Assembly (NCBI GenBank): GCA_000004985.1
Contig: GG738848.1
DNA from: Naegleria gruberi
Lineage: Eukaryota
Length of the DNA stretch: 64,000 nt
Reading direction: 5' to 3' (one strand)
The translations under genes were made by a program, and so were the position numbers. Below the pieces are notes generated by a model that saw only the letters and a program-made list of their open reading frames with translations, had not been told where the DNA came from and ran no database searches. Shown piece after piece: positions 27,818 to 64,000 of the stretch. Positions within the stretch are counted from its first letter, which is position 1. Each line of letters opens with the position of its first letter.

Positions 27818-30800
27818 TCAAAGTCTTATTTTATCTTCGTTTTCTTCAGTTTCTTGTTGTTCTATAGCTTGTTGGTCATCAACTGGTGGATATGTTTCTT
27901 CCTTTCTATCCATGAAGAATGCCCTAGTACTGCCCATCAGGTTCAAACTATTACGAAGAGATGCATTGTGCATATTTTCAGCTCTCATTCTGGTAGATCT
28001 AAATGATGCGAACTTGGAGTTTGATTCTGGTTGACTTGTGGCTGATTGTACTTGTGTTAGTTGTTGTAAATGTTTGAAAACTTCAACTTCTACTGGATTT
28101 TCATGATCTACATTATGAATTACAGACCCTCCAAAACTGACATGAGCATTAGAATCTGCACCTTCCTCTTGATGAGGGAAAATTTCAAGTGGATCAACGT
28201 GATGTTTCTTCTTGAGTAAGTAGGTCTGGCAAAGTCCTTTTCCTTTCACATCAATTTTCCGTTCCTCAAATTCCATTCCCAAATCGTGAACTCTTTCATA
28301 GGTAGTTCTAGAAATTTGGATACGACCTGGTTCTCCTGTTGATTCCATTCTTGAGGCAGTATTGATGGTATCTCCCCACAAGTCGTAGGCAAACTTTTTG
28401 ATTCCAATCACACCAGCAACAACTGGTCCTGTATGTAGGCCGACACGAATGTTTACATTGGTATTCTCGCTGCAATTGTATTCCTTGATTACCTGAAGTG
28501 TATCAATGGCGAATCTCAATGACCTTTCAGGGTGATCTGATTGAGCATTCAAATCAATACCTCCAACACAAAAGTAAGCATCTCCAATGGTTTTAATCTT
28601 TTCCAAATTATACTTTTCAGTGAGCAAATCAAATCCATTCACAATAGCATTCAACATTAATACAAGTTCAGATGGATTCATTCCAGAACTAATTCTTGTA
28701 AACCCAACCATGTCAGAGAAGAATACAGTTACATCATTGAATTTTTCAGCAATGAATGTCTCTCCTCCCTTCAATTTGGAAGCAACACTCTCTGGCATGA
28801 TATTCAACAATAACTGTTCAGATTTCTTCTTCTCTTCAGCTAGTAACATGTTTTGCTTCTTCTCAGGTGTGAAATCCTTGATGAAACAACTAATAACTGG
28901 CTTCTTGTTGAAAATACTAACAAACAAATTGACTTTGGAAGGGAATTTGGTTCCATTCTTTCTGTAGCATTCCAATTCAAGAGTTTCACCAAAAGGTTGT
29001 GTTGCATTGACCATTTGTTGAATAATGGTTTCCAAACGTTGTCTATTATTATCGGAAGGATCGAATAGCTTGGTGAGCTTTTCTCCTAAAACATCACTAT
29101 TAGTCATGCCAAACATCTTTTGAGCAACTGGATTGAAAAGTTCAATGTCACCTTGTGAGTTACACAAAATGGCTCCATCAACTGCTGCATTCAAAATGGC
29201 TCTCACCTTACCGTCTCCACCACTACCTTCTTCTTCGTTGGTTTGTTTCTTTGATATTCTTAATTTGCTTGGAAGATTATTGAAAAGAGCAAATTGTTTC
29301 AACTCTTCATTGGATTCCATAGCCTCAATTGGAAGGTAGTTGAGTAAACTTCTTAATTGGTTGGATTGATCCCAAATATTTTGAATTAAACCATATGTCA
29401 AATATCCTAAAATTGCTAAAATAATAAATCCAAAAACAGAAAATAGGATGGTAATGATGAGATTTGGAACTGACATTGATGATGAATAGAAAGTAAACAA
29501 GTTCAAGAATTTTTGCAACAAAATATTGCACTTGTCATCTGTAGTAAGCATTGTCTTGTAAAGGTCAATCAACTTGTAATTACTAAAGTAAACATCCTCT
29601 GAAAATGTATTACTAGCCGTAGAGAAATCAACAATTAAATCATTAATACTACTACAAGAGTAATAGGTGGTATTAGTACAGTTGGTACTTTCAAGAATAG
29701 CCGTAACTTCAGTGCTTGATGACGTAAATGAAGATTCATATTGTAAATTATTCCAATAACTTGCAAGTGATCCCGTCAGTGCCTTATTCTCATCATGGAA
29801 AGAGTCAATTTCTGAAGATGTTATCAGCCTGGGGTCATTGATACTGGAAATGTCTGCATATCTCTTGGCAATAAAAATCTCCGAAAGTCTAAATGTTATA
29901 GAGACAGAGGTGGTCATAATTTTAACACCACTTTCAATATTCTCGAGTGCAAGTATTGCTTTTTGGGAGTCTAATTGAAAATCCAAGAAAAGCATAGACA
30001 TGCAGCATACTGTCAAGAAAATAGTCGCAACAATCAAGAAGGAAACTGAAAATTGAGGTCTTTCAAATAATGTAGGATCTTTCACATCAATATCTTCACC
30101 ACTCTTTGATTCCAAGTGGTGATAGATTTTTCCAATATAGTCCTTTGTGATTGATCTTGACATGAACTTGATTGTTGACTTAATTTGTCTCAATTTAAAC
30201 GTAGAGAATGCCACAAAAACAATTGCAATAATACCATAAACAGATATCGAAATAGCATAAAAGTAAATAAACTGCTCTTGCAACATTGTGTACTGTTCCT
30301 TATTTCTTTGTAAAAATAATTCACACATGTTTGAAAAACTAGCGGTTTGAACTTTTCTATTCTTCCAGAAAAACATAAAGTTAGAAGCAGTTGTTGTGTT
30401 TGAATATGATGTCATGTCCATTGCCAAATATTCATTGGTGTTTTTGATTATAATATCATTGATTTCTGAAAGGGAGGCATTTCTCTTTTGATTGAAAGAG
30501 TCTGCACTTGTAAAGTTGTTATCATAGTAAACAACTGGTAAATAAAGATCATGAGTAGAACTGGTAAAATCAGATAGCATTCCTTTTGTGAATTTTGATG
30601 CTGATTTCTTGAGAGATTGAAGAACTGTTACATATGTTCTAACTCTTGCCTTGTGTGCTGCAAAATAGCTTGTTGTACTGTTGGATCCATTGACCATAGT
30701 TGCAGCAATATCGTTACTGTACAATGGAAACATCTTGTTAAAGTTTTGAATCATTCTAATCTCTTTTAACATGTATCTTGGGAAGAATTGTGGAATGCAA

Positions 30801-33067
30801 ACATAATGTGCAACTGCCACATTATTATCAATTTGAATAGAGAAACTCACACCGAGACCAATTGCAACAGTCAAAATACTCAATGAAAAGCAAAAGATAA
30901 AGCCAAAGAAGTACATCAAAATGTTTGATCCCTTTGTTCTATTGAGGGCGGATCTTATTTGCAACTCCTTCTTGATAATTGATGAACGATTTTCTACTCC
31001 ATCAAACTCAGACGACTCTGAAACAGACTTTTCATCAAAGTTGAACTTGTTATTTTTCGATTCAACATTTGGCATGTATGGCAGGACCTTATTTCCTTTG
31101 ACAACTGGTTTCTTGTGGGAAACTTTACGAGTTTCCTCATCCTCAATAGTTGCTGCCTCGTCATACATTTCATTGGCTCTTTCTTTGTCAAATTTAATTT
31201 CTTCCAAAAACTTGGCATATGTTCTTAAAACATTCTTATTGTTACCATAATTTGACATTAAATTGGTTAGCACAAGGGTACATTGTTTTGTGAGTGATGT
31301 GATTTGACTGTTCAATGAGTCAATCTTGTCTACGGATACTGATTCACTCATCATTTCCTTCCAAAATGATTTGTGTAAAGAGCTGATAATAGCATGCTTC
31401 TTTTCAATTTTCTGAATGATATGTTTGACTTCTAATAGCTTTTTACCATCTTCTAGAGATATCTCCAACTCTTTTGTTCTGAGACTGATGGAAAATCTTT
31501 GAATCAGATTTGGTAAGTTTTTAGTGGCCTTCTCCAAAAGTTTCAATCCAGCACTTTGTTGACCTTCAATAAAGTTTCCTGTAATCACAGCAGCAATTAC
31601 TAAAAGGTCAATATTCTGATAAGTTTTCTGACTAGCAACTCCTTTGATAAAGCATTTGGCCATTTCAATTTCTGTCAAATTACCAATTGATAAACCTTCC
31701 TTTGCAGTCTTGACACAAAATTTCAAGAAGAGAAACAATCTTCTAGTCTTTTTTGTTTCCTCAATTTCATGTAAAATGTTGAGCGCTTGTCTCTCAAGAA
31801 TATACTTGGGATTAATAAAATCCAAATTGTCACTCTTAATTAGAGAATCAAGACCCTTCTCCAAGTGATCGAGAAATACTGCCTTGATATCTTTCATAAT
31901 CATTCGAGTGTACATCTCTAATGAAATACTTCCAACTGCAAAGAAGACAATCATTACAAAGAAGGTTATTCCCATCAATCCTAAACCAAGTCCAAACTCA
32001 TTCTCTTTGTTTACATAGACAGATACCACTCCACACAAGGAAGAACCAACTGCAGCACACATAAAACCAAAGTAAACTGAATTCTCCCATCTTGTATAGA
32101 ATGGAATAAAGTACAGAAAAGATGCAGCAAGAATAAATCTTGTTAGAAAGTAATAAACTGCTTGAATGACAATGTAATCGTCTGAAACCAAGCATGTAAA
32201 AATGTAAAAACTTGTTGAAGCAAGAAAGTTGAAGAATAAAAAGTGCAAATCGTACGAAGCAAATGGTGTCTTACTTTTAGCATGTACATCCATCAATGTG
32301 TGGGTTCCAACAAATAATGAAAGTGGCACTGCAAACACTGACATAATTCCAAGAACCATCATGGCAATATTACCACTTCCGTAACAATATACATCTGGGT
32401 ATCTCTGTAAAACTTGATGTGGTGTCAAAGCTGGTGCAACAATCACCGATGATGCATAGTTACAATCGAGGAAACCCAACAAGAGCCAACTAATTGGCAT
32501 AGATAGTAGACACGTTGTTGCAATAATTATCTGCGTGGCAATCTTTATCTTTGGCCAATATTTGCTCATTGTATAGACTGACCTATAGGCCAATGCCAAA
32601 GTAATAACCGAAACAATAAGAAACGCAAAGAAAACCGAAGCAATAATTAAGGCTGGTATATATGGAACATTTTCCAATCCAAATGTCATTGGATAATTGA
32701 GTGCTCTAGCTATCCATTTACCATATTCTCCATAGTTATAGTCTGGTTGTATTCCAATGAATAGTCCTATCCAAATAATGTACAAGTGCACGCACAACAT
32801 GACGATTTTGTCTTTCCTTGAGATACATTCTGTCGAGTCGTGCAAACTCATCAACAAAGTTATCAGAGATTCTTCAACTTTTGCCATGAAGGTCATATTA
32901 TTAAATTCAGTGTCCAAATCAGTTACTGAAACAACAGATTCAGAGCCAGAACCTGCAAACTTTGGTGGGCCTGCATTACTCCCCACCGAAAATCTTCTTG
33001 CACGTGTATCATATTGAGAGGGATTGCCCATACTGATGGCATCGTCTGTAATGTTGAGATTATTCAT
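27818..33067 (-). CDS. Polytopic class III nucleotide cyclase with 6 TM, a cytoplasmic region, 6 TM, a PAS/PAC domain and a cyclase homology domain. Adenylyl-type by the Lys in KIKTIGD.
   Basis: The 1749-aa ORF is uninterrupted. Two clusters of about 6 hydrophobic helices are present. The PAS/PAC segment is [38 protein letters not shown]...[21 protein letters not shown]. The cyclase domain is [16 protein letters not shown]...[15 protein letters not shown]...[36 protein letters not shown]. Confidence 0.8.
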   Translation of the reverse strand: [1749 protein letters not shown]

Positions 33068-40302: not shown

Positions 40303-41809
40303 TTAATATTTTTCATGTAATTCTTGGAAGTGTGTTTCGGTTTTCTTCCTATTCAAGAAAACTAGTAAAATACACACCACAATACACAATGCAATCAAAG
40401 ATAGAATAAATAATACACCAACAGCAATAATTGGCTTCAATGTAAATAAATAATCAACTGGAGCAGTACTGAATTGAAAGTTTCCACCTTTTGAGAATAC
40501 TACATAGTATTGAGTTGCTTCTCCTGAAAAGAGATAGAGATTAGTTGAATTTACATGATAGTCATAATTGAAAAATTGATTTCTTTCAATATTCCAAGTG
40601 ATTGGTTTCTTTCCAATATAAACATCTTGAATTGTTGCTGTATTTTCAATTCTGATTTCAAAATATGTTTGAGGTTGAGTGGTGAAAGTTGCTGTGAATG
40701 GTGCGGAATTATCACTTTGAATTGAGTATGTTTGTCCAATTTCAAGTTTAGTATAATTAAAACTAATCTTTTTAGCATAAAACAAATTATATACAGCACT
40801 GGGTGGAGAAATTGTGAATGAATAATCTGGATTTCTATTGGAGATGACTTGTTGTGTAAGATTTGATTGAACAATGGCTACCATTTCTTGATTTGAATTT
40901 GAGAATTGCCACACTGATTGAACTGGATCATTAGATTTCAACTCTTGAGCTATCAATGAAATGCAACCATAATTTTGATAGAAATGATCTTCTTTCACAC
41001 TTTCAATTGAATTCCATTCATTTACCAAACAATTCCCAATATAAAATAAAACATTTCGTTGCTGAATAGGATTCAGTTTCAACACCAAATTAGGTTGTCC
41101 ATAAACGNNNNNNNNNNNNNNNNNNNNNNNNNNNNNNNNNNNNNNNNNNNNNNNNNNCTGATTTCATTCTGGGAATGTTAAATTTGCAAAATCCACATTA
41201 ATTTCCATAACTTTTCCCCATTCAACTGGTTTTGTTTCTCCATATGGACAAGCAAGTTTAGATTTTCCAGAAAATCCATAATTGATAACACCACCTTCTT
41301 TTGATTCACCAGTGAATGTGAGAGTTGGTCTTTCAGCAGCAGTGAAATCACATGTTAAAGAAATAGACAATGCTCTTGTAACTCCATCAGTAGCAGGAAT
41401 ACCAGCATGGAAGACCTTTACACCAGCACTTTCATCTGCAGGATTGAGCAATGAAAGTTTAGGAGTACCTTTCTTACCGATAGGATAGCAGAGATTGTAT
41501 TGTTTAGCATATAGATATCCTTGAGCGTCAACAGTACAAACAGCATTGCTTGGATTGGTAACTCCTCCACAAATATTGCTAAAATTCCAACTAATTAGTT
41601 TCCGATAATAATAAACAAAATACATACAAATAAAAGTTGAAATTAGCATCGGTTGCTGCAACTTTATATCCTGAACCAGGAATATCAATATTAGAAAGGT
41701 CGATAATTCCTCTATAAGCAATTGGTAATGAACAAGTCGGTGCGGAGAATACAACATGCACACAACAAGCAAGCAGCAATGTGAGCAACACAAAGGTCAA
41801 TCGTAACAT
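40303..41809 (-). CDS. Surface protein paralogue A with a signal peptide, an extracellular domain and a single C-terminal TM with a short cytoplasmic tail. It has two exons and is interrupted by a 50-N assembly gap.
   Basis: Exon 1 is 41809..41628 (MLRLTFVLLTLLLACCVHVVFSAPTCS...) and ends at a GTATGT donor. A 49-nt intron spans 41579..41627. Exon 2 runs from 41578 to 40303. It is about 90% identical to gene B over the ectodomain. The C-terminus is IIAVGVLFILSLIALCIVVCILLVFLNRKKTETHFQELHEKY. A 1-nt deletion relative to gene B creates a stop just before the gap at 41108..41157. Confidence 0.45.
41108..41157. other. Assembly gap of 50 N inside tandem paralogue A.
   Basis: A run of exactly 50 N. 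The flanks align to adjacent positions of paralogue B, so little or no real sequence may be missing. Confidence 0.9.
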
Positions 41810-46649: not shown

Positions 46650-47765
46650 ATGTTAGTGAACCGCAATGTTTGTTGCATTATCATGATAACGTTGTTGCTG
46701 TTGTTGTTGGTTGCAAACGTTACTTTAGCAGAGCAACAAGATATTTCGCCATCCACCACAAAACGAACATCGGTTAGTGTTGGTTTCACAAAAGCTCTAG
46801 ATGTTGGAATGGCTCAAGTTGCAACAAGTGACAAATGGCAACAAATATTCGAATCATTGGGTATGTTGTTTGATATATCTCAGTACTAACAAGAGTAATA
46901 TTTCATTGCTTGTCAATGTTATTGTCGATCGAATAGGCATTCCATTTAATGTACCAAAATGTTCTTCAAAATTTGGATCGTCATTCCCTTCCAATCCATT
47001 TCCTTCATCTAAAACCCAATTGAATATTTGTTATGAAGAACCTGCTCAAGTTTGGGCTTCCATTTTCAAAGGTGCTGGTGATTTATTAGTGGAAGTGCTC
47101 AACAAACAATACAGCATCAATTTGAAAGCCAATCATTTAATTTTGAATACTACAGAGCTTGGATACTTTGATAGTATGAAGGCTGGTGTGGATTCTGGAT
47201 TGTGTGACATTTGTACCTCCAATGTAAGTTTTTTCTCGGATGTTGTTGTTAAATGATGATATACTAATGAAATCTTGTTGTTGTTGTAATTGAATAGATA
47301 ATTAAAACACAAACAAGAGCCGAACAAGTCAACATGAATTGTCCATATGGTAGCTCTAGTTTAGCATTCCTTCGTTCCGAACTTGATCCATCAAGATTTA
47401 ATACTAGCAAAGAACTCAACAATACTGATGCAATCATTGTTGTTTATGGAGGAACCTATTTTGAAACTGTTGCTAGAACAATGTTTCCTGCTGCCAAACT
47501 AATTCTAGAACCTGGTGGTTATGACGCCACTTATGGATATATCAAGGATAAACGTGCCCATGCAACCATTGCTGATGCTGTTGATTTAAGTTATTGGTTG
47601 AAAAACAACAAGAACCAGTGTACAAATTGTTATATTAGATTCTTTGGAGATCCATATGAGTACGGAAGCGTTACTACTAAATTGTATGATAGTGAAGGAA
47701 CGAAGAATGGTTATTCAATGTTAATGCTGTTATTGTTGGTGCTTTTCTGCTTGTTCAATATATAA
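46650..47765 (+). CDS. Secreted three-exon protein with an N-terminal signal peptide and a C-terminal hydrophobic GPI-like tail. The ectodomain may have a solute-binding-protein-like fold (speculative).
   Basis: The exons are 46650..46860, 46937..47223 and 47298..47765. Intron 1 is gtatgt...tactaac...gaatAG, 76 nt. Intron 2 is gtaagt...atactaatg...gaatAG, 74 nt. Phases were verified at 1/1 and 0/0, giving one continuous frame. The N-terminus is MLVNRNVCCIIMITLLLLLLVANVTLA. The C-terminus is NGYSMLMLLLLVLFCLFNI. Confidence 0.5.
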
Positions 47766-51699: not shown

Positions 51700-54013
51700 A
51701 TGACGAACATGGTTACACCCATGCATCACTCGATGGATCAATTTGCGTTTGATGAAGATCCCTCGCTTAATGATTCGCAGCGGAAGAAGAGAAAGATATC
51801 GGCAAGAAAGGTGCTTAGTTTGCGGAATATTATCATTACACTGATAGCTTTATTTATGGTGATTATTGCGTTTGTAGTGTGGATTATAGGATTCACAGCT
51901 AGTAATTCATCAACTCGTTTGTTGAGTGAGAGGCTGAAGGAGAGTTCTTCCGAGAGAGTAGTAGTAATGATTGAGAGTATGTTCTATCAGGCGCAGGATT
52001 TGGCTCTCACATTCAAGAATTTCTATGATCAACAATCCGATTACATGTCCAACTTTTTTGTAAATAGGACAATATATGAAAGAGCAGTCAAATCCATGTT
52101 GTTTTCCTCACTCATAACTAGGCAATCTGCAATGAATTCTGTTAATTTTGTTTTTAACACTGGTCATATTGTTGGATGGGAGTGCTATAACTTGGGTTGC
52201 AATTATATAATTTCGAGAGAGAGCGATTTAACCATGATGGCTTACAATTACGATTTTAAGGCAGGTAAGCTCAAAGATACTACAGTATATCAAGTACCTG
52301 GATTCAATGCTGCCACTATTATTCCAACATACAAGGTGGTTACAGATCCAATTTACAAAAATAGTACGGTGAGAGGAACTGGAATGTTTTTCCCAATTAG
52401 TAGACATGTTGTTTTCGTGGATACCTACGTTACATCGATTGCACTTCCGTACTATGATACGGATGAAAAGTTGGTAGGTGCTGCCAACGTTGTATTTTAT
52501 ACTGACACACTGAATAGTAAGGTCAGAGAAGCTAATCCTTCACAAGAGGGTTACATTATAGTTATCGAGGATAGTGGTGTGATTGTTGCTCACTCATTTG
52601 CTAATCAGACAGCCATTATGGAAAAACCATGTTATTTAGAAGGAAATGCAGCAGTGAAATCATTATGTTCCTATTTTTTTCCACCAAATGTAACTACCAT
52701 TAGTTCTAGATTCCCTAGTAGTACTCAAAAATTTTCTTTGGATGGTTTGTCAATTCAAAGAACTGAAACATCGTTCCCTGGTGTAAAGTGGCATATTTTC
52801 ATTGCCATTCCAGATAAGGAAATATTAGGTGATATTGTAGTGCAGTCGTATAATACCATTTGGATCTCTGCACTTGTATTGGTACTTGCAATTATAGTCT
52901 CTGTTCTGACAACCTTCTCACTGATGAGAACTCTTTCACAATTGGCCAGGTGTTTCGATGCTATTCGTAACTTGGATTTGGATGCATCCACCATTGTTAA
53001 AGCCACTTCAGGAAGAACCTATGTTTATGAATTGGGAGAATTACAAAACAATTTCAAGAGTATGATTGTTACCCTTAAATCTATTAGAAAGTTTGTTCCA
53101 GTCCAAATCATTAAAAAGATTCTCATCACTGGCAAGGAAGCATCACTGGGTATTCAAGATGCTGATGCAACTATCTTTTTCCTTGATATTGCTGGATTTA
53201 CCACTCTTTCAGAAAAGATGGAACCAAAGGCTTTGGTAGATATGATTTGTTCTGTATTTGAAACTTGTTCTCAGGCAATTTCAAGACGTGATGGTGTTAT
53301 TGACAAGTTTATTGGTGATGCAGGTATGTACATATTAATTCATGTATTTATTTATAATTATATTAGTTATGGCATTGTGGAATGTTCCAACTAAAACTCC
53401 AGATCACGAATATCATGCCATTCAAGCAGCCATTGAAATTCAAACAGAAATGGAAAAGAAGAATATACCAATTCGTATAGGAATCCATAGTGGTCGTGTA
53501 AAAGCTGGTAATATTGGAAGTGTTGATAGATTTAGCTTTAGTGTCGTTGGAGATGGGGCCAATTTAGCCAGTAGATTAGAAGGTGCCAACAAGGCTTACT
53601 CTTCAAAGATTATTTGTAGTAGTAGTACAATGGAGGTTGCTCTCATTAGTGAGGAACGATTAGTTCTTCATGATCCAAATATAAATCGACTCATGTATAG
53701 AAGATTAGATAAATTGAAAGTGAAAGGTAAAGAACAACCAGTATTGACCTACCAAGTCTTTCTCTCAAGCCATCCAAAACATACCAATGATTTAGACGCA
53801 AGAGATGTTAAACTCTACGAAAAGGCTTTTGATTTGTTGATGAAAAATCAATATAAGGAAGCTCTTGCAATATTTTATACTCTCATAGATAAGGCTCCTA
53901 AAGATGTTGTTTTGGAAAAGAAGATTGAGTTGTGCAAATCTTTAGTTGAGAATGGTGGTTTTTATGATGATGGAAAGAAGTTTGATGGCTCTATTGAATT
54001 TACTGAGAAGTAA
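51700..54013 (+). CDS. Receptor-type class III adenylyl-cyclase-like protein: TM, an extracellular sensor domain of about 330 aa, TM, a linker and a cyclase domain. Two exons.
   Basis: Exon 1 is 51700..53323 and ends GDA+G at a perfect CAG|GTATGT donor. A 43-nt intron spans 53324..53366. Exon 2 is 53367..54013. The splice restores the canonical cyclase motif KFIGDAVMALWNVP. Other cyclase motifs are ATIFFLDIAGFTTLSEKMEP and IRIGIHSGRVKAGNIGSVDRFSFSVVGDGANLASRLEG. TM1 is IITLIALFMVIIAFVVWIIGF and TM2 is IWISALVLVLAIIVSVLTTFSLM. A Lys lies at the substrate-specifying position (DKFIGD). Confidence 0.75.
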
Positions 54014-54282
54014 AAGTTGTCAGATGCAGTTCGATTCCGCAAGTTGAAATTATAAAAACCATCAATAGGGATTGTTCAATATCATGGAGAGAGTTTTTAT
54101 ATCTTTAATAAAAGTTTTTCTCTTGTTTCACACAACTAAGATTTTCCTTGAACCCAAATAAGTACATTAACAACAATTATCCAATCAATTTCAATCAAAA
54201 TGATTATCAAAATACCCACCTCAAATAGCTAATTCACGCATTTCCCAACAAATTCAAACATTGAAAAAATATAAACACAAAG

Positions 54283-54834
54283 ATGACATCATTCTCAACA
54301 GAATCCATCTTAATGAGTGGAATGTCAACAAATGGCACCAAGATGCATCCAATGCACATGTATTTCTCAATGGAATCATTTCAACCTTACTACAAATACA
54401 TTCTTTTCCAAAATTGGAATGCTGATACCGATTGGAAGTATGCTTTATCATTTTTAGGAGTGTTTTTATTGGCATTCTTCAATCAGTCGATATATTTCTC
54501 ACTTCACTTTCAAGTTGATGAGAAGAGGAGAAGAATTCTTCACTATCTAGTTTCATATATTGTAAAACCGATTGGTTTCTTTGTGGAAATGAGCATTGGA
54601 TATTTACTCATGTTGGTTTCAATGACGTATAACTTTGGATTGTTCATGGCAATAATTGTTGGTAACTTTATTGGATATATCATCTTCCAAATGTTGATTT
54701 CTGAATATTTGGAACGTAAACAAGCAAGAACCAGTGAAGAAGAAGTGGAAAGGCAATCGCTTACCAACCTTAAGGTCGGAGAAGAATCGGAACCAAAGAA
54801 GCCTTGTTGTAAGAAACAAAACGTAATAAATTAG
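54283..54834 (+). CDS. Ctr-family (SLC31-like) copper transporter.
   Basis: The 183-aa ORF has a Met-rich N-terminus (MSGMSTNGTKMHPMHMYFSME). Three TM helices are present. The last TM contains the GxxxG motif (IIVGNFIGYIIF). An MxxxM-type Met pair sits near TM2. The tail is acidic. Confidence 0.55.
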   Translation: MTSFSTESILMSGMSTNGTKMHPMHMYFSMESFQPYYKYILFQNWNADTDWKYALSFLGVFLLAFFNQSIYFSLHFQVDEKRRRILHYLVSYIVKPIGFFVEMSIGYLLMLVSMTYNFGLFMAIIVGNFIGYIIFQMLISEYLERKQARTSEEEVERQSLTNLKVGEESEPKKPCCKKQNVIN

Positions 54835-54923: not shown

Positions 54924-56749
54924 TTATTTCTTGATTTCTTTTACTTCTTTATCTACCAATTTGATAGCTAGTTTAGCTCTTGCATGTATGATATCATCAA
55001 AAGTAAATCCACTTATCTTTTGACACTTTTCCAAAAGACTCTTTGTTTCATGTAAATATTTCAGTTTTTCCTCCTGTGAATTTTCAACTCCAGCAACAAC
55101 CTTATTAAAATAGGTGAACTCTGCCAATTCATAATATGAAAATGCTGACCAAATCTTTTCAATTTTGATCTTTTCAAATGAAGTGGTTTTGTGAAATTCT
55201 TGTAAACTTTCCTCAGCCTTGTTCAAAACTTGTAAAAAGTGTGCGTTAACGAAATGAATTCCAGAGCAAATATCTGGATAAACCTTTGATTTCTCATCCA
55301 CAACCTTTACATCCAACACAAATTGTTTGAAAAATTCATACAACGGTGTAATTAATTCCTCACTCATGTGTAACAAGTCTCTATTCCAATAGATATTCTG
55401 GAATAAAGAGAGAATTATAAATAGGTGTCTATCTTGCTCATTCTTGATATGTTTGAGAGTTTCTACCTTCTCGTGTGGGAATTTGTTTTGCTTGGAGACC
55501 TTCTTTGCCAGTGAATCAATGAGTTGATTTGCAGCTTGTTTATCACCCTTTTTGAGTTTACAAGCGGCCAAAAGAATGATACTATTACCTGTGGCATCAA
55601 ACTTTCCCTTCTCATGATTTGCCACTTGAGTTGACAACTCTTCAGCTTGTTCCAAATTGCCAGCATAAAATTGAGCTAGTCCCAAAACATAAATCATACT
55701 GATTGGTGTTTCTCCTGATGCTTGTGTCAAAACTTCAATGGATTGTGAAATGTTTTCTATTGCCTTATTCACCTGTCCATTTTTCACATTGTGATAAGCA
55801 ATTACAAATTTGAAAAATCCACTTTTTGGATAGAGATTGCCAACTTTTTGTAAAATTGGTTCTGCCAAATCCAAATTAATTTTAGGTTTTTGGAATGGAG
55901 TAGGAATGAATAGGTATTTCAAACAGAGCATAAAGGTTGCCTTTCCCAAGATTCTTCCACCATATTGCTGAGCTTTCTTCATCAATTCAAATCCCAAATC
56001 TCTATCAATATTGAATCCAATATGACTCAAAATGGCAAGTAGATCAGGAGGTAACACTGAAACCAATCCAACTCCAAAATACGTTGGATAAATCACATCA
56101 CTATGAATGAAATTATTTGAAGTTTTTGGTTCATTCTTAAATTGTTCAATTTTGTGATAAATTTCCTTATATTTCATAAAACAACTTCTAAAATTGTAAA
56201 ACCCTCTAATATATGATCCATCCATAAATTGCAATAAACTTCTCAATAAATGTGATTCAGCATCCACCAATTTCAAATCCAATTCATAATTAAACATTTG
56301 TTGATCTCTTGTCAATTCCTCTAATTTACAATAATTTTCACTTGTCTTTTCAGCAGAATCAAATCTTTCCAAATCTTCCACAGTAATCTCGGCATTCCAC
56401 TTTGAAATCTCATCAATCATCTTACTAATATCCTCAGATCGTTTATAACGTTGCAAAGTTGACTCCAATCCACCCAATTTATCAAAGGCAAATTTTCTCA
56501 TATTTTCATCACCACATGCAGCTGACACGAAAGCAGCTGAATTTAATATTTTACAAAATATTTAATTGATGAATTATTAAATAATAATATATTATCAATA
56601 CATAGTGTAATGATGAACAACAACTTACGAATTGTGGCCAATTCCAATGCCATCCTCGGAATGTGTGATTTATCAGCCATATACTCCTTGGCTTGCTCTA
56701 ATTCAGTATTCCAGACGAGGTAGTTTGCCTTGGTGATGCAGGCGTACAT
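54924..56749 (-). CDS. TPR-like helical-repeat protein with two exons.
   Basis: Exon 1 is 56749..56629 (MYACITKANYLVWNTELEQAKEYMADKSHIPRMALELATI) and ends at a GTAAGT donor. A 92-nt intron spans 56537..56628 with acceptor aattcAG. Exon 2 is 56536..54924, phase 1, verified in frame with ORF 54924..56528, whose M is a GTG. The body consists of alpha-helical repeat segments. Confidence 0.5.
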
Positions 56750-57894: not shown

Positions 57895-59676
57895 TTGCAC
57901 CAATTTTATTTTAACCTTAAAAAAATGTCTATAAGCTCATCGTCAAGAATCACAGATTACTTCATCAATCCTCCTAAGGAAACACCTCCTAAGGCAGAGG
58001 AGAGCGTAATAAAGTACCCGTCTCTCGGTTGTGCTGGAGTGCTTAGTTCTGCTACAGTAGGAAGTGTAGCAACACAATTGTCACAACCTATGTTCCTTAA
58101 CAATTTCGGAATTAATGTTGATGCAGCACTAACTGATGATAAAGGAGAAAGAAACGAAGCAGAAAGAAATTTAGAGAAGGTGTTTTCACAGGACATTATT
58201 GATGACGCTTTGTTTAAAATAACACAAAGAAAATCTAATATTAAGGTTGGAGAAAACCACTCATGTGCTCTTGTTAATTGTAATTTGTTTTTGTCTATTA
58301 GATTTACAGATATGAAAGTGGATATGAACGGAAAAGAGTTAATACTTAAAGCTTCAGATGACGTTACTCACCACTCCAAATTCTCTAATCAAAGAGAAGA
58401 AGAAAAAGCCTCTTTTGATCTAACAGACGACGAGAAATCCTTCAATCTTTTATTGTATTACATGCAAAGTGTGTTGAGGGACACGTTGAAACCAGATTAT
58501 TACGTTATGCTTAATCAATGTAAATTTGTTACGGACCTTTTTGGCAAAAACATTGTTGAGATGTTCAGAGCAGAATCCAAAGAAATGAGGGAGGATTTTT
58601 TTGCAGATTTGTAAGTAGCTAATTAACTGGTTCAATGTTAATATTTCATAGTTTGAAAGTTATTATGCTGTCTCAAAGGCAATGCTTAGTGTTGATGGAG
58701 CAACTTGAAAAGAAAACAGGTTATATTTATCCCATTAAGGCTCCAAGTATGGGGAATGCTGGCGATTTTTACAGACTTTCAATGACAACAGTTCTCCCTT
58801 CGGAATTATTTTACTTTCTATTATTCGAATTGCAAATTACAAATCCAACTTTCACACAATTCAAATTGGCATCAATCATCCAACAGTTAAAAAACAAAAA
58901 GACCGATGTAAAGGCAGTCATAGATAACAAAAAGAGCGTTTCTGATGAAAATATACGTCTCATGGACAATCGTTACAAAAGTCTTGAACAAAAACTAACA
59001 ATACTAGAAAGCTTTTACCCAGAATTCTTAAGAGATCAAAATATTGTTATAGATAACACTGCATGCTGTTCAGCCATCGATAAACTCCAAGCAGGAATTG
59101 CTATTAAAGGAAGCATAATTTCTAATGAAAAAGATGTTAGAAGTCTTTTTTTGGATTGTCAAATTATTTCTAAATATGTAATTGAACTCACTAAGAGAGT
59201 GTTAAGAGAATTAGGAGTTGATATGAGTCTTATTATCACTAACACCGGAAAGGAGTTGAGTGATATAGACATTGACAACCATTTTGATTGTCTAAATATT
59301 AGATTCAAAAGAATGGTAAGTATCAAAACGACTTGAAGTTAAATCATATTGTAGCCAACAAACAGAAATAACAGATCTCGTGTCTTCATTGTTGAGAAAT
59401 ATTTGAATGATAAATGGTCCAAAACTCATATAATCAAACACTATGATGACAAAGATTACTTTGACAACGAAACTTATAGCAACCCTTTAGTTCTTAATAA
59501 GCATCACCGTGACCAAGTCCCTAACCTTTTTGTAGCAATTATGCCATTTATTGTTCATGATCATTCATATTGTACCCAAGAAAACATGCTTAAGATACTG
59601 TACTCTGCATCTCTATGTCTCTCAAAAACTCACAAGATGAAACATGTTCACGGAGACATAAAACCTGATCATATTT
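57895..59676 (+). CDS. Multi-exon gene ending in a protein-kinase catalytic domain. Partial, because the 3' end runs into the assembly gap.
   Basis: Exon 1 is 57895..58610. The ORF-track stop TAA is actually part of a GTAAGT donor. Intron 58611..58651 is 41 nt with acceptor tcatAG. Exon 2 is 58652..59315, with a GTAAGT donor right after ...FKRM. Intron 59316..59354 is 39 nt with acceptor ttgtAG. Exon 3 is 59355..59676+ and encodes RVFIVEKYLNDKWSKT (subdomain V-like) ... KMKHVHGDIKPDHI (catalytic loop HxDxKxxN-like). All junctions were checked in frame. Confidence 0.45.
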
Positions 59677-62600
59677 NNNNNNNNNNNNNNNNNNNNNNNN
59701 NNNNNNNNNNNNNNNNNNNNNNNNNNNNNNNNNNNNNNNNNNNNNNNNNNNNNNNNNNNNNNNNNNNNNNNNNNNNNNNNNNNNNNNNNNNNNNNNNNNN
59801 NNNNNNNNNNNNNNNNNNNNNNNNNNNNNNNNNNNNNNNNNNNNNNNNNNNNNNNNNNNNNNNNNNNNNNNNNNNNNNNNNNNNNNNNNNNNNNNNNNNN
59901 NNNNNNNNNNNNNNNNNNNNNNNNNNNNNNNNNNNNNNNNNNNNNNNNNNNNNNNNNNNNNNNNNNNNNNNNNNNNNNNNNNNNNNNNNNNNNNNNNNNN
60001 NNNNNNNNNNNNNNNNNNNNNNNNNNNNNNNNNNNNNNNNNNNNNNNNNNNNNNNNNNNNNNNNNNNNNNNNNNNNNNNNNNNNNNNNNNNNNNNNNNNN
60101 NNNNNNNNNNNNNNNNNNNNNNNNNNNNNNNNNNNNNNNNNNNNNNNNNNNNNNNNNNNNNNNNNNNNNNNNNNNNNNNNNNNNNNNNNNNNNNNNNNNN
60201 NNNNNNNNNNNNNNNNNNNNNNNNNNNNNNNNNNNNNNNNNNNNNNNNNNNNNNNNNNNNNNNNNNNNNNNNNNNNNNNNNNNNNNNNNNNNNNNNNNNN
60301 NNNNNNNNNNNNNNNNNNNNNNNNNNNNNNNNNNNNNNNNNNNNNNNNNNNNNNNNNNNNNNNNNNNNNNNNNNNNNNNNNNNNNNNNNNNNNNNNNNNN
60401 NNNNNNNNNNNNNNNNNNNNNNNNNNNNNNNNNNNNNNNNNNNNNNNNNNNNNNNNNNNNNNNNNNNNNNNNNNNNNNNNNNNNNNNNNNNNNNNNNNNN
60501 NNNNNNNNNNNNNNNNNNNNNNNNNNNNNNNNNNNNNNNNNNNNNNNNNNNNNNNNNNNNNNNNNNNNNNNNNNNNNNNNNNNNNNNNNNNNNNNNNNNN
60601 NNNNNNNNNNNNNNNNNNNNNNNNNNNNNNNNNNNNNNNNNNNNNNNNNNNNNNNNNNNNNNNNNNNNNNNNNNNNNNNNNNNNNNNNNNNNNNNNNNNN
60701 NNNNNNNNNNNNNNNNNNNNNNNNNNNNNNNNNNNNNNNNNNNNNNNNNNNNNNNNNNNNNNNNNNNNNNNNNNNNNNNNNNNNNNNNNNNNNNNNNNNN
60801 NNNNNNNNNNNNNNNNNNNNNNNNNNNNNNNNNNNNNNNNNNNNNNNNNNNNNNNNNNNNNNNNNNNNNNNNNNNNNNNNNNNNNNNNNNNNNNNNNNNN
60901 NNNNNNNNNNNNNNNNNNNNNNNNNNNNNNNNNNNNNNNNNNNNNNNNNNNNNNNNNNNNNNNNNNNNNNNNNNNNNNNNNNNNNNNNNNNNNNNNNNNN
61001 NNNNNNNNNNNNNNNNNNNNNNNNNNNNNNNNNNNNNNNNNNNNNNNNNNNNNNNNNNNNNNNNNNNNNNNNNNNNNNNNNNNNNNNNNNNNNNNNNNNN
61101 NNNNNNNNNNNNNNNNNNNNNNNNNNNNNNNNNNNNNNNNNNNNNNNNNNNNNNNNNNNNNNNNNNNNNNNNNNNNNNNNNNNNNNNNNNNNNNNNNNNN
61201 NNNNNNNNNNNNNNNNNNNNNNNNNNNNNNNNNNNNNNNNNNNNNNNNNNNNNNNNNNNNNNNNNNNNNNNNNNNNNNNNNNNNNNNNNNNNNNNNNNNN
61301 NNNNNNNNNNNNNNNNNNNNNNNNNNNNNNNNNNNNNNNNNNNNNNNNNNNNNNNNNNNNNNNNNNNNNNNNNNNNNNNNNNNNNNNNNNNNNNNNNNNN
61401 NNNNNNNNNNNNNNNNNNNNNNNNNNNNNNNNNNNNNNNNNNNNNNNNNNNNNNNNNNNNNNNNNNNNNNNNNNNNNNNNNNNNNNNNNNNNNNNNNNNN
61501 NNNNNNNNNNNNNNNNNNNNNNNNNNNNNNNNNNNNNNNNNNNNNNNNNNNNNNNNNNNNNNNNNNNNNNNNNNNNNNNNNNNNNNNNNNNNNNNNNNNN
61601 NNNNNNNNNNNNNNNNNNNNNNNNNNNNNNNNNNNNNNNNNNNNNNNNNNNNNNNNNNNNNNNNNNNNNNNNNNNNNNNNNNNNNNNNNNNNNNNNNNNN
61701 NNNNNNNNNNNNNNNNNNNNNNNNNNNNNNNNNNNNNNNNNNNNNNNNNNNNNNNNNNNNNNNNNNNNNNNNNNNNNNNNNNNNNNNNNNNNNNNNNNNN
61801 NNNNNNNNNNNNNNNNNNNNNNNNNNNNNNNNNNNNNNNNNNNNNNNNNNNNNNNNNNNNNNNNNNNNNNNNNNNNNNNNNNNNNNNNNNNNNNNNNNNN
61901 NNNNNNNNNNNNNNNNNNNNNNNNNNNNNNNNNNNNNNNNNNNNNNNNNNNNNNNNNNNNNNNNNNNNNNNNNNNNNNNNNNNNNNNNNNNNNNNNNNNN
62001 NNNNNNNNNNNNNNNNNNNNNNNNNNNNNNNNNNNNNNNNNNNNNNNNNNNNNNNNNNNNNNNNNNNNNNNNNNNNNNNNNNNNNNNNNNNNNNNNNNNN
62101 NNNNNNNNNNNNNNNNNNNNNNNNNNNNNNNNNNNNNNNNNNNNNNNNNNNNNNNNNNNNNNNNNNNNNNNNNNNNNNNNNNNNNNNNNNNNNNNNNNNN
62201 NNNNNNNNNNNNNNNNNNNNNNNNNNNNNNNNNNNNNNNNNNNNNNNNNNNNNNNNNNNNNNNNNNNNNNNNNNNNNNNNNNNNNNNNNNNNNNNNNNNN
62301 NNNNNNNNNNNNNNNNNNNNNNNNNNNNNNNNNNNNNNNNNNNNNNNNNNNNNNNNNNNNNNNNNNNNNNNNNNNNNNNNNNNNNNNNNNNNNNNNNNNN
62401 NNNNNNNNNNNNNNNNNNNNNNNNNNNNNNNNNNNNNNNNNNNNNNNNNNNNNNNNNNNNNNNNNNNNNNNNNNNNNNNNNNNNNNNNNNNNNNNNNNNN
62501 NNNNNNNNNNNNNNNNNNNNNNNNNNNNNNNNNNNNNNNNNNNNNNNNNNNNNNNNNNNNNNNNNNNNNNNNNNNNNNNNNNNNNNNNNNNNNNNNNNNN

Positions 62601-62885
62601 NNNNNNNNNNNNNNNNNNNNNNNNNNNNNNNNNNNNNNNNNNNNNNNNNNNNNNNNNNNNNNNNNNNNNNNNNNNNNNNNNNNNNNNNNNNNNNNNNNNN
62701 NNNNNNNNNNNNNNNNNNNNNNNNNNNNNNNNNNNNNNNNNNNNNNNNNNNNNNNNNNNNNNNNNNNNNNNNNNNNNNNNNNNNNNNNNNNNNNNNNNNN
62801 NNNNNNNNNNNNNNNNNNNNNNNNNNNNNNNNNNNNNNNNNNNNNNNNNNNNNNNNNNNNNNNNNNNNNNNNNNNNNNNNNNNNN
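59677..62885. other. Assembly gap of 3209 N.
   Basis: A run of N. The 1198-aa minus-strand ORF at 59622..63218 is an artefact of translating N as X. Confidence 0.95.
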
Positions 62886-63627
62886 TTGGTTACAACATTT
62901 ACTCAACCTAAAGGTATTACCATGTTCAATGGTGATATTTATGTGGCAGACACAGGAGTAGCTGTTGTGTGGAAAGTTAAAATTACATACAGAAATGTTG
63001 GTACAGCAACTATTTATGCTGGAAGTTTCAGTACTTTGAATAATAATTATTGCAATGTCATTTATGCTACCAATTGTAAACTTATCAAACCAACAAGTGT
63101 AACTTTCTTTCAAGATGGGACTATGGCAATAGCTGATGGTAGTAGAGTTATTATGGTTAGTAAAGACCAAACGGCTTACCCAGCCCCTTTTTCCATGAGT
63201 GTTACTAATCCTATTCATGTTGTTGCATATTATGCTTCCAACATGTTAGTTTCTGATGCAGGTTTATCACGTTTCATTCAATTCAATAAGGATCAAGCTC
63301 AACCAAATACCAATGAAGTTTTGCGTAATGGATGGTCAGGAAATACATATTTTGGTATTGTTAAACAAGCTGATAATTCCAAGAATGTGTTTTTCCTCAC
63401 ATCTCAAGATCGCAATAACCAAAGAAATCAAGTTGCTTTGTTTAATTTTATTGACAGCGATTTACCAAGCACCAGTATAACAACACTGTATGGCATGTAT
63501 AGTTCTTTCAATTTTGACAATCCACATAATGCTTTGGGCATTTACTTGCCTGAGCCACAACAAATGAGATTGACTTCTAGTAATCAATTATATTTCCCAG
63601 TTTTCAATTCTGCTGTTGTTAAAGTTG
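62886..63627 (+). pseudogene. Subtelomeric open reading frame fragment, beta-propeller/NHL-like, open from the gap edge into the telomere repeat with no stop.
   Basis: There are 247 sense codons with no stop in AT-rich DNA (LVTTFTQPKGITMFNGDIYVADTGVAVVWKV...[11 protein letters not shown]). The frame then continues through the (GGGTTT)n repeat, which has no stop in any frame. The 5' end is lost in the gap. Confidence 0.3.
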
Positions 63628-64000
63628 GGGGTTGGGTTTGGGTTTGGGTTTGGGTTTGGGTTTGGGTTTGGGTTTGGGTTTGGGTTTGGGTTTGGGTTTG
63701 GGTTTGGGTTTGGGTTTGGGTTTGGGTTTGGGTTTGGGTTTGGGTTTGGGTTTGGGTTTGGGTTTGGGTTTGGGTTTGGGTTTGGGTTTGGGTTTGGGTT
63801 TGGGTTTGGGTTTGGGTTTGGGTTTGGGTTTGGGTTTGGGTTTGGGTTTGGGTTTGGGTTTGGGTTTGGGTTTGGGTTTGGGTTTGGGTTTGGGTTTGGG
63901 TTTGGGTTTGGGTTTGGGTTTGGGTTTGGGTTTGGGTTTGGGTTTGGGTTTGGGTTTGGGTTTGGGTTTGGGTTTGGGTTTGGGTTTGGGTTTGGGTTTA
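63624..64000 (+). repeat. Telomere-like hexamer repeat (TTTGGG)n, about 62 copies, G-rich strand 5' to 3' toward the window end.
   Basis: A perfect tandem GGGTTT array runs from about 63628 to the end of the window. It is preceded by a short degenerate GTTGGGGGTTGGG start. Orientation and position fit a right-arm chromosome terminus. Confidence 0.85.

What the first reader, a model, noticed from the sequence alone, without database searches (positions are those of the whole stretch)
51700..54013. A second, receptor-type cyclase has a large extracellular sensor domain, and an ORF-splitting intron falls inside the catalytic motif
About 19 kb from the first cyclase lies a gene with TM, an ectodomain of about 330 aa, TM, a linker and a cyclase domain. 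This layout resembles bacterial and protist receptor adenylyl cyclases. A 43-nt intron (CAG|GTATGT ... tattAG) interrupts the conserved GDAVMA motif. Automated ORF calling therefore splits it into two ORFs, and the first acquires a spurious tail (MYILIHVFIYNY...). Splicing restores a perfect KFIGDAVMALWNVP. Two sensory cyclases in one subtelomeric window hint at a locally expanded signalling family.
Basis: partly seen in the sequence, partly recalled or inferred. Interest (0 to 1): 0.6.

Follow-up and report, generated by a model that had tools for sequence, protein, structure and literature searches.

The report
Annotated Naegleria receptor adenylyl cyclase gene

Summary
ORFs 51700..53394 and 53342..54013 join when 53324..53366 is removed. 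This 43-nt segment runs GTATGT...TTAG and is 14% GC. The joined 756-aa protein reads KFIGDAVMALWNVP across the junction.

That protein is an exact match to the annotated N. gruberi protein NAEGRDRAFT_62835 (XP_002682025.1, UniProt D2V1C3). The window is therefore N. gruberi, and the public gene model already uses this intron.

All six catalytic positions are occupied (D496, K536, D540, S600, N607, R611), which predicts a homodimeric adenylyl cyclase.

Cache-bearing "bacterial-type" cyclases in Naegleria were reported in 2016. Bacteria carry colinear full-length relatives.

The "locally expanded family" idea is not supported. The other cyclase in the window has a TPR-PAS-cyclase layout and is only about 30% identical in the catalytic domain. 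The window is subtelomeric.

Verdict: real, correctly read and already known. Interest is low.

The parts
51700..53323 (+). Exon 1 of NAEGRDRAFT_62835. It covers codons 1-541 plus the first base of codon 542.
   Evidence: ORF list and sequence. The spliced product is an exact match to XP_002682025.1 / D2V1C3.
53324..53366 (+). Spliceosomal GT-AG intron, 43 nt, phase 1, 14% GC. It lies between A541 and V542 of the GDAVMA motif.
   Evidence: Sequence. The annotated model uses it. Paralog P0001 is colinear across it. It is present with intact GT/AG in the independent ENA contig L086. That contig differs from the window at 2 of 43 intron positions against 6 of 872 exon positions, and 5 of the 6 exon differences are synonymous.
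53367..54013 (+). Exon 2: the last two bases of codon 542, codons 543-756, and the stop codon TAA at 54011..54013.
51829..51897 (+). TM1 (residues 44-66, IIITLIALFMVIIAFVVWIIGFT). It is preceded by the basic stretch RKKRKISARK, which fits a cytosolic N-terminus.
   Evidence: Hydropathy scan; translation check.
51898..52860 (+). Extracellular double-Cache (dCache-type) sensor domain, residues 67-387. It has five N-x-S/T sequons and four Cys (162, 167, 311, 323). The C311/C323 pair is invariant across the six aligned family members. The C162/C167 pair is kept in the paralog P0001 only.
52861..52929 (+). TM2 (residues 388-410).
   Evidence: Hydropathy. It is a continuous helix from the ectodomain into the linker in the AF2 model.
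52930..53094 (+). HAMP-like linker (residues 411-465): helix, connector, helix.
   Evidence: AF2 secondary structure. It aligns with the HAMP segments of bacterial dCache_1-HAMP proteins. hhalign against HAMP segments gives probability 51% and E 1.5e-4. Pfam HAMP is not detected in this protein itself.
53095..53163 (+). Short conserved helix just before the catalytic domain (residues 466-488, VPVQIIKKILITGKEASLG...). I read it as the transducer or signalling helix.
   Evidence: The conserved K[FY]VP...L....EA.LG pattern across the family and its bacterial relatives. Its role is inferred.
53164..53755 (+). Class III nucleotidyl cyclase catalytic domain (residues 489-671), interrupted by the intron. 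Catalytic codons: D496 53185..53187, K536 53305..53307, D540 53317..53319, S600 53540..53542, N607 53561..53563, R611 53573..53575.
   Evidence: Pfam PF00211 77.1 bits. Alignment to P. aeruginosa CyaB 3r5g and OaPAC 5x4t. Invariant columns. Codon check.
53756..54010 (+). Conserved C-terminal tail (residues 672-756): three TPR-like helices and a terminal ...DGSIEFTEK motif. The tail is shared with paralogs and with bacterial relatives.
   Evidence: Alignments. AF2 model of paralog P0001: helices 697-747 at pLDDT above 90. Bacterial matches extend to the C-terminus.

Best explanation
The region is the two-exon N. gruberi gene NAEGRDRAFT_62835. It encodes a type-II-like, two-pass membrane receptor cyclase of bacterial design.

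Shown here:
- The gene structure and the domain order.
- The dCache fold of the ectodomain.
- Occupancy of all six class III catalytic positions: metal-binding D496 and D540, adenine-specifying K536 partnered by S600, and transition-state N607 and R611.

Inferred:
- The protein works as a homodimer with two symmetric active sites at the interface of the catalytic domains.
- A small-molecule ligand, still unknown, binds the membrane-distal Cache module outside the cell.
- Ligand binding displaces the long helix that continues into TM2.
- The HAMP-like linker and the short pre-catalytic helix convert that movement into a change in catalytic-domain packing, which changes cAMP synthesis.

The K536 and S600 pair predicts ATP rather than GTP as substrate. 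The 43-nt intron is an ordinary short Naegleria intron. It happens to fall inside the GDAVMA metal-binding motif.
For: Identity of the gene:
- The spliced product is an exact match to XP_002682025.1 / D2V1C3.
- The neighbouring gene is 100% identical to NAEGRDRAFT_78228 on the same 712,659-nt scaffold.

Intron:
- Canonical GTATGT...AG boundaries and low GC.
- Other introns of 39-45 nt in the window.
- 45-nt and 43-nt GTATGT introns in the cyclase domain of paralog locus L004.
- Colinearity with the 68%-identical paralog P0001.
- Kept at the same length in the independent contig L086, where it diverges more than the exons do.

Catalytic domain:
- Pfam E 1.6e-21.
- The best solved relatives are class IIIb cyclases: CyaB, OaPAC and CyaC.
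- The catalytic residues lie in invariant alignment columns.
- Definitions of the six residues and of class IIIb are taken from PMC2613629.

Ectodomain:
- AF2 pLDDT 84 and pTM 0.69.
- Foldseek probability 1.0 to MkcA, PctD, McpX, Mlp24, PctC and TlpA.
- Distant sequence hits to bacterial dCache_1-HAMP proteins.

Bacterial design:
- The protein aligns over residues 21-737 to Bradyrhizobium and other bacterial proteins, E about 1e-50.
- Upadhyay et al. 2016 (PMC4822843) already describe a Cache domain in a 'bacterial-type adenylate cyclase' of Naegleria.
Against: - No transcript data could be consulted, so splicing rests on comparative and annotation evidence.
- Pfam dCache_1 is below its gathering score (30.3 against 45 bits). 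Pfam HAMP does not hit this protein at all.
- The second substrate-specifying position is Ser. It is neither the Asp of class IIIa nor the Thr of class IIIb, so the subclass and any CO2/bicarbonate response are open.
- The structural models are predictions from shallow alignments of 16-20 sequences.
- Dimerisation, ligand, substrate and direction of regulation are all inferred.
- The divergence excess in the intron is marginal (2/43 against 6/872, one-sided Fisher p = 0.05).
Confidence: 0.85

Rival explanations
1. The 43-nt segment is not spliced. The locus would then be a disrupted gene or pseudogene, or the segment would be an assembly artefact. Only a truncated 564-aa protein lacking half the catalytic domain would be made.
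For: Read-through does give a long ORF of 564 aa.
Against: - The segment has canonical GT-AG ends with a GTATGT donor, like other short introns here and in a paralog.
- Removing it restores the frame and a motif identical to the paralog's.
- Exon 2 stays open for 214 codons with all catalytic residues intact.
- An independent isolate has the same segment, and all four of its exon-2 substitutions are synonymous. This shows purifying selection on the downstream exon.
- The public gene model splices it.
Confidence: 0.04
2. The enzyme is a guanylyl cyclase, or a catalytically inactive pseudo-cyclase that acts only as a receptor or scaffold.
For: The Asp/Thr substrate position is Ser (S600), which is atypical. 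At least one family member (P0040) has lost the metal-binding Asp residues, so degenerate members exist.
Against: This protein keeps both metal Asp residues, the adenine-specifying Lys, and the Asn and Arg pair. The Glu and Cys pair typical of guanylyl cyclases is absent. That typical pair is stated from established knowledge of class III cyclases.
Confidence: 0.08
3. The ectodomain is a CHASE or other PAS-like periplasmic sensor rather than a dCache domain.
Confidence: 0.03

Closest known systems
N. gruberi NAEGRDRAFT_62835 (EFC49281.1, XP_002682025.1, UniProt D2V1C3), 'predicted protein'
   Same: Identical in all 756 residues. It therefore has the same start, stop and intron, and lies on the same scaffold as the neighbouring gene.
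   Different: Nothing differs in sequence. The public record gives no function. Pfam would list only the cyclase domain for it, because dCache_1 is below threshold.
N. gruberi paralog NAEGRDRAFT_63679 (XP_002681105.1, D2V4C8; P0001)
   Same: 68% identity over the full length. Same TM-ectodomain-TM-linker-cyclase-tail layout, the same four ectodomain Cys, and identical KFIGDAVMALWNVPT.
   Different: It is on a different scaffold (693,645 nt). Its N-terminus is 10 residues longer. Its genomic DNA was not retrievable, so its intron position is unknown.
Naegleria dCache_1-cyclases reported by Upadhyay et al. 2016 (D2V3A4_NAEGR at 745 aa, D2VLR9_NAEGR at 894 aa)
   Same: Same organism and the same dCache_1 plus Guanylate_cyc combination. 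The authors call it a bacterial-type adenylate cyclase and attribute it to horizontal transfer (PMC4822843).
   Different: They are different paralogs. D2V1C3 does not appear in the part of their supplementary table that is held. Their main text speaks of a single protein, whereas at least four such genes exist in N. gruberi.
Bacterial TM-dCache-TM-HAMP-cyclase-tail proteins (Bradyrhizobium spp., Mesorhizobium, Polyangiaceae and other MAGs; P0002, P0008); M. tuberculosis Rv2435c as a named dCache cyclase
   Same: They are colinear over nearly the full length. The window protein's residues 21-737 align at 24-33% identity with E about 1e-50. The alignment includes the C-terminal helical tail and the terminal DG..L..K motif. 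Rv2435c is cited as a dCache cyclase in PMC4822843.
   Different: The bacterial genes have no introns. Their HAMP is recognisable by Pfam. The Naegleria ectodomain carries insertions in the distal module and conserved Cys pairs.
P. aeruginosa CyaB catalytic domain (PDB 3r5g) and other class IIIb cyclases (OaPAC 5x4t, CyaC 1wc0)
   Same: These are the best solved sequence relatives of the catalytic domain, E about 1e-18. They share the metal Asp residues, the Lys and the Asn and Arg pair.
   Different: They have Thr where this protein has S600. Their sensor modules differ: MASE2 for CyaB (from established knowledge) and BLUF for OaPAC.
Protist receptor cyclases: trypanosomatid ESAG4/GRESAG4 and Dictyostelium ACG (compared from established knowledge, not tested here)
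   Same: Each has an extracellular sensor coupled to a single class III catalytic domain that must dimerise.
   Different: Trypanosomatid enzymes have one TM helix and a periplasmic-binding-protein-like ectodomain. ACG is described with a CHASE-type osmosensor. The Naegleria protein has two TM helices and a dCache fold.

Membership tests
Class III nucleotidyl cyclase (Pfam PF00211) | Catalytic-domain profile match above the curated threshold | tested here: met
   77.1 bits against a cutoff of 21.9, E 1.6e-21, residues 489-671. 55 PDB cyclase sequences are matched.
Class III nucleotidyl cyclase (Pfam PF00211) | Two metal-binding Asp residues | tested here: met
   D496 (FFLDIAGFT) and D540 (IGDAVMA) are aligned to CyaB and OaPAC and lie in invariant columns.
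Class III nucleotidyl cyclase (Pfam PF00211) | Transition-state Asn and Arg | tested here: met
   N607 and R611 in GANLASR are invariant columns.
Class III nucleotidyl cyclase (Pfam PF00211) | cAMP or cGMP synthesis by a dimer | not testable with these tools
   This needs an enzyme assay.
Class IIIb adenylyl cyclase subclass | Adenine-specifying Lys, with the partner Asp replaced by Thr (PMC2613629) | tested here: inconclusive
   K536 is present. The partner position is Ser (S600), aligned to the Thr of CyaB. Ser is chemically close to Thr, but it is not the defining residue.
dCache_1 (Pfam PF02743) | Profile match above the gathering score | tested here: not met
   30.3 bits against 45, E 3.9e-7, covering only residues 208-304. 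Family members score 20-23 bits.
dCache_1 (Pfam PF02743) | Fold: a long N-terminal helix with two tandem PAS-like modules, located between two TM helices outside the cytoplasm | tested here: met
dCache_1AA amino-acid sensors (Gumerov et al. 2022, PMC8915833) | AA_motif Y121, R126, W128, Y144, D173 (PctA numbering) | tested here: not met
   Where dCache_1 proteins have R-P-W-Y, this protein has I-P-T-Y (208-211). The Y144-equivalent position aligns to Ser in FFPIS. This is based on alignment only.
HAMP (Pfam PF00672) | Profile match; a helix-connector-helix of about 50 residues directly after the last TM | tested here: inconclusive
   There is no Pfam hit in this protein even at E up to 10. Two of 13 aligned relatives hit, best E 4e-4. 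hhalign against HAMP segments gives probability 51% and E 1.5e-4. The predicted helix-connector-helix is at the right place.
CHASE sensor domain | Profile or fold match better than to other sensor families | tested here: not met
U2-type spliceosomal intron | GT...AG ends; removal restores the frame and a conserved protein sequence; size typical of the genome | tested here: met
U2-type spliceosomal intron | Absent from mature mRNA | not testable with these tools
   No transcript data were accessible. The public model, which is identical to the spliced product, is indirect support.
Trypanosomatid-type receptor adenylyl cyclase | Single TM helix and a periplasmic-binding-protein-like ectodomain (from established knowledge) | tested here: not met
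   Two TM helices and a dCache fold.

The most novel reading that the evidence does not exclude
The gene may belong to a heterolobosean-wide family of bacterial-type dCache-HAMP-like-cyclase receptors. The family has at least four N. gruberi paralogs, a Pharyngomonas kirbyi transcript and several environmental contigs. It would descend from one old bacterial transfer and then have acquired introns repeatedly.

Three members carry an intron within the same 11-codon stretch around K[FY]IGD[AC]xMAxW, but at three different positions and phases. These are after IDK (phase 0), after GDA (phase 1) and after MAQW (phase 0). That could mark an intron-gain or intron-sliding hotspot.

The ligand is not an amino acid of the dCache_1AA type. 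It could be a signal from prey or from the environment.
Probability: 0.25. Interest if true: 0.35.

Novelty: already known. Interest (0 to 1): 0.12.

Why it matters
It matters little beyond tidy annotation. The gene model has been public since the N. gruberi genome release. The presence of Cache-type, bacterial-style adenylyl cyclases in Naegleria was published in 2016.

This work adds four modest points:
- This particular 'predicted protein' (D2V1C3) and its paralog D2V4C8 can be labelled dCache receptor adenylyl cyclases. The evidence is structural, because Pfam misses the sensor at threshold.
- The sensor lacks the amino-acid-binding motif.
- The family extends to Pharyngomonas and to bacteria with a shared C-terminal tail.
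- Family members carry short introns at different nearby positions in the catalytic motif.

None of this opens a long-standing question. It could help anyone who wants to de-orphanise Naegleria's very large cyclase repertoire.

Tried and rejected
1. I first took P0001 (68% identity) for the ortholog and concluded the window came from another Naegleria species. That was wrong. The neighbouring gene is 100% identical to N. gruberi, and the spliced protein is an exact N. gruberi entry. The entry was hidden because its 90% cluster is represented by a 214-aa ENA fragment.
2. The ectodomain-only word-index search found nothing, not even P0001. This was a sensitivity failure of the tool and not evidence of orphan status. 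The exhaustive HMMER search found 15 relatives.
3. The metagenome-contig scan failed. The first alignment was too diverse. The second attempt matched 450 patterns but none was confirmed.
4. Genomic DNA for P0001 and P0047 was not on record, so the paralog's intron position could not be checked.
5. The afdb50 fold library was unavailable.
6. Fritz-Laylin et al. 2010 is not held. The N. gruberi cyclase count is therefore not cited. The N. fowleri count of 80 is used instead.
7. CHASE was considered and rejected.
8. An amino-acid-sensing dCache_1AA was considered and rejected.
9. Pfam HAMP was not detected, and hhalign support is only moderate. The linker is therefore called HAMP-like.
10. A linker profile searched against PDB gave only chance coiled-coil hits.
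11. No paper mentions the locus tags or accessions.
Full report
**1. The observation.** On the + strand, ORF 51700..53394 (564 aa) ends in the tail GDAGMYILIHVFIYNYISYGIVECSN. ORF 53342..54013 (223 aa) begins MYLFIIILVMALWNVP. The segment 53324..53366 is 43 nt long and starts GTATGT. It ends TTAG and is 14% GC, against 36.5% for the coding sequence. Exon 1 is 1624 nt, so the intron is in phase 1. Removing the segment gives a 2271-nt reading frame and a 756-aa protein that reads ...GVIDKFIGDAVMALWNVPTKT....

**2. Identity of the locus.** The adjacent gene at 54924..56528 (minus strand) is 100% identical to N. gruberi NAEGRDRAFT_78228 on a 712,659-nt scaffold. The N. lovaniensis, N. fowleri and Willaertia orthologs of that gene are only 37-42% identical. 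An exact-sequence look-up of the spliced 756-aa protein returns EFC49281.1 / XP_002682025.1 / UniProt D2V1C3 / NAEGRDRAFT_62835, 'predicted protein [Naegleria gruberi]', on the same scaffold. The two raw ORF products are not in the collection.

The first homology search missed this entry. Its 90% cluster is represented by a 214-aa fragment. The best hit of that search, P0001 (NAEGRDRAFT_63679, D2V4C8, 68% identity, full-length colinear), is a paralog on another scaffold and not an ortholog.

**3. The intron.** Five lines of evidence support splicing:
- The ends are canonical, and the spliced product is identical to the public model.
- The paralog reads KFIGDAVMALWNVPT without interruption.
- A scan of the window for GT...AG segments that join long open frames finds other short candidates of the same kind. 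These are 58611..58651 (41 nt), 59316..59354 (39 nt), 46861..46936 (76 nt) and 47224..47297 (74 nt).
- Family member L004 (GC 33%) has two GTATGT introns of 45 and 43 nt in its cyclase domain. L005 (GC 50%) has one of 204 nt. Splicing restores full-length proteins in both cases.
- An independent environmental contig, L086, is 98.4% identical over 1.2 kb. It carries the same 43-nt segment with intact GT and AG.

In L086, 2 of 43 intron positions differ from the window, against 6 of 872 exon positions. Five of the six exon differences are synonymous, and all four in exon 2 are. A 10-nt deletion lies in the downstream non-coding DNA of L086. The excess of differences in the intron is marginal (one-sided Fisher p = 0.05). 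No transcript data could be consulted, so that step remains inferred.

**4. Protein anatomy.**
- Hydropathy gives two TM helices, at residues 44-66 and 388-410. A basic stretch (RKKRKISARK) lies before the first helix. This predicts a cytosolic N-terminus, a 321-aa ectodomain and a cytosolic C-terminal half.
- The ectodomain has five N-x-S/T sequons and four cysteines. C311 and C323 are invariant across the six aligned family members. C162 and C167 are shared with the paralog P0001 only. This is consistent with an extracellular location.
- Pfam finds Guanylate_cyc at 489-671 (E 1.6e-21). It also finds a sub-threshold dCache_1 match at 208-304: E 3.9e-7, 30.3 bits against a cutoff of 45.

**5. 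The ectodomain.** An exhaustive HMMER search of 1.84 billion representative proteins found only 15 relatives at E below 1e-3. Most of them are cyclases of the same layout. They include a Pharyngomonas kirbyi transcript and metagenomic contigs. The most distant hits are bacterial dCache_1-HAMP-GGDEF and dCache_1-HAMP-SpoIIE proteins with clear Pfam dCache_1 matches.

The ectodomain is therefore a divergent double-Cache domain. The amino-acid motif of dCache_1AA (PMC8915833) is not present. I-P-T-Y replaces R-P-W-Y, and Ser replaces the Y144-equivalent residue. The ligand is unknown.

**6. Linker.** Residues 411-465 are predicted as helix, connector, helix directly after TM2. They align with the HAMP segments of the bacterial dCache_1-HAMP relatives. 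Pfam HAMP does not hit this protein. It hits 2 of 13 aligned relatives. hhalign against six bona fide HAMP segments gives probability 51% and E 1.5e-4. I call the region HAMP-like. A short conserved helix (K[FY]VP...EA.LG) follows it and leads into the catalytic domain.

**7. Catalytic domain.** The best solved relatives are P. aeruginosa CyaB, OaPAC, Cya-type and CyaC cyclases. The six canonical positions of a homodimeric class III cyclase are occupied (PMC2613629). D496 and D540 bind the metals. K536 and S600 specify the substrate. N607 and R611 stabilise the transition state. S600 aligns to the Thr that partly defines class IIIb, so the subclass is close to IIIb but not strictly met. The Lys predicts ATP as substrate.

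Residues 672-756 form a conserved tail. In the full-length model of paralog P0001 (pLDDT 76.8 overall, above 90 in the catalytic domain and tail), the tail is three helices plus a short terminal strand. The tail and its terminal [WF]DG..x..x.K motif are shared with paralogs and with bacterial relatives.

**8. Relatives and origin.** The nearest non-Naegleria full-length relatives are bacterial. P0008 lies in a MAG next to sucA/sucB. P0002 overlaps its upstream gene by 4 nt. A scan of one genome per prokaryotic species found many colinear full-length homologs. They come from a Polyangiaceae MAG, Bradyrhizobium, Mesorhizobium, Verrucomicrobiota, Spirochaetes and others. The window protein aligns to them over residues 21-737 at 24-33% identity, with E about 1e-50.

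Upadhyay et al. 2016 state that in Naegleria the Cache domain occurs in 'a bacterial-type adenylate cyclase' and attribute eukaryotic Cache domains to horizontal transfer. Their supplement lists D2V3A4_NAEGR and D2VLR9_NAEGR as dCache_1 plus Guanylate_cyc proteins. D2V1C3 is not in the held part of that table. No held paper mentions this gene by accession.

**9. The 'second cyclase' and 'local expansion'.** The other cyclase in the window is ORF 27818..33067 on the minus strand (1749 aa). It carries TPR_TmcB, PAS and Guanylate_cyc domains. Its catalytic domain is about 30% identical to this one, and nothing else in the window resembles either gene. They are not tandem duplicates.

Naegleria genomes carry very many cyclases. 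N. fowleri has 80 in about 28-30 Mb, and 62 of them are expressed in trophozoites (PMC9283941; genome sizes from PMC9928731). That is about one per 360 kb. A second cyclase within a 64-kb window is then expected in roughly 15% of cases.

The window is indeed a chromosome end. (TTTGGG)n runs 63624..63999 with the G-rich strand pointing towards the end, 9.6 kb beyond the stop codon. Two runs of N lie at 41108..41157 and 59677..62885.

**10. Mechanism.**
- Shown: the gene structure, the domain order, the fold of the sensor and an intact catalytic residue set.
- Inferred from what is established for dCache receptors and homodimeric class III cyclases:
  - The protein dimerises.
  - A small ligand binds the membrane-distal Cache module.
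  - The helix continuous with TM2 shifts.
  - The HAMP-like linker and the pre-catalytic helix transmit the change.
  - The two symmetric active sites at the catalytic-domain interface alter cAMP output.
- Unknown: the ligand, the sign of regulation and any CO2 or bicarbonate sensitivity.

**11. Verdict.** It is also an existing annotated gene of a kind already described for this organism. The added value is modest. Interest is low.

Noticed in passing
window 63624..63999: About 63 perfect copies of GTTTGG, that is (TTTGGG)n, run to the window end with the G-rich strand pointing 5'->3' towards the end. This looks like the telomere of this N. gruberi scaffold.
   Followed up: partly
window 41108..41157 and 59677..62885: Runs of N (50 and 3209 bases), which are scaffold gaps. 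The listed 1198-aa 'ORF' 59622..63218 on the minus strand, and an apparently open + frame from 59355 to the window end, are artefacts of translating N.
   Followed up: yes
window 27818..33067 (minus strand): The 'first cyclase' is a single 1749-aa ORF with TPR_TmcB (543-647), PAS (1287-1400) and Guanylate_cyc (1440-1619). This exact ORF product is not in the protein collection, so the public model for it probably differs in start or introns.
   Followed up: partly
window 3157..4477: Tandem repeat with a 72-nt period (also 216 nt), about 18 copies at 86-90% identity. It starts inside ORF 2787..4013 and extends beyond it. The period equals 24 codons, which suggests a leucine-rich-repeat-type protein.
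   Followed up: no
window 58611..58651, 59316..59354, 46861..46936, 47224..47297: Other short GT...AG segments with GTAAGT or GTATGT donors. Removing each joins long open frames. They look like further ORF-splitting introns of 39-76 nt in neighbouring genes.
   Followed up: partly
L004 4063..4107 and 4269..4311; L005 2842..3045: Paralogous dCache-cyclase genes carry introns in the same catalytic region but at different sites. The sites are after GDCIMAQW (45 nt, phase 0, in-frame and read through by the gene caller), after GQVLVG (43 nt) and after GGVIDK (204 nt, phase 0). Together with the window intron, which lies after GDA in phase 1, three introns fall within 11 codons.
   Followed up: partly
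L086 (ENA ERZ929261, PRJEB11402) against window 53099..54317: An environmental contig is 98.4% identical to this locus, so a close N. gruberi-like strain exists. It has one amino-acid change (R530H, window 53288 G->A) and a 10-nt deletion in the 3' flank (54127..54136).
   Followed up: yes
P0032 (ENA, 108 aa) against window residues 145-229: A 97%-identical fragment from another ENA contig leaves homology abruptly after ...RGTGM and continues CCFHQMADQ.... The window gene is continuous at that point. This could be a chimeric contig or a rearranged copy.
   Followed up: no
P0040 (JGI metagenome, 855 aa): A family member has lost both metal-binding Asp residues (VVRIANQ and KLSHDS) and carries a long acidic insert before the catalytic domain. 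It is probably a catalytically dead pseudo-cyclase within the family.
   Followed up: no
P0036 (Pharyngomonas kirbyi transcript, 1642 aa): A dCache-cyclase of this family is fused in one transcript-derived ORF to an Integrator subunit 2 (INTS2) domain. This is likely a chimeric or read-through transcript assembly.
   Followed up: no
tool behaviour: The exact N. gruberi entry for this gene was invisible in the clustered homology search, because its 90% cluster is represented by a 214-aa fragment. The ectodomain-only query also returned nothing, although a 63%-identical paralog is in the database.
   Followed up: yes
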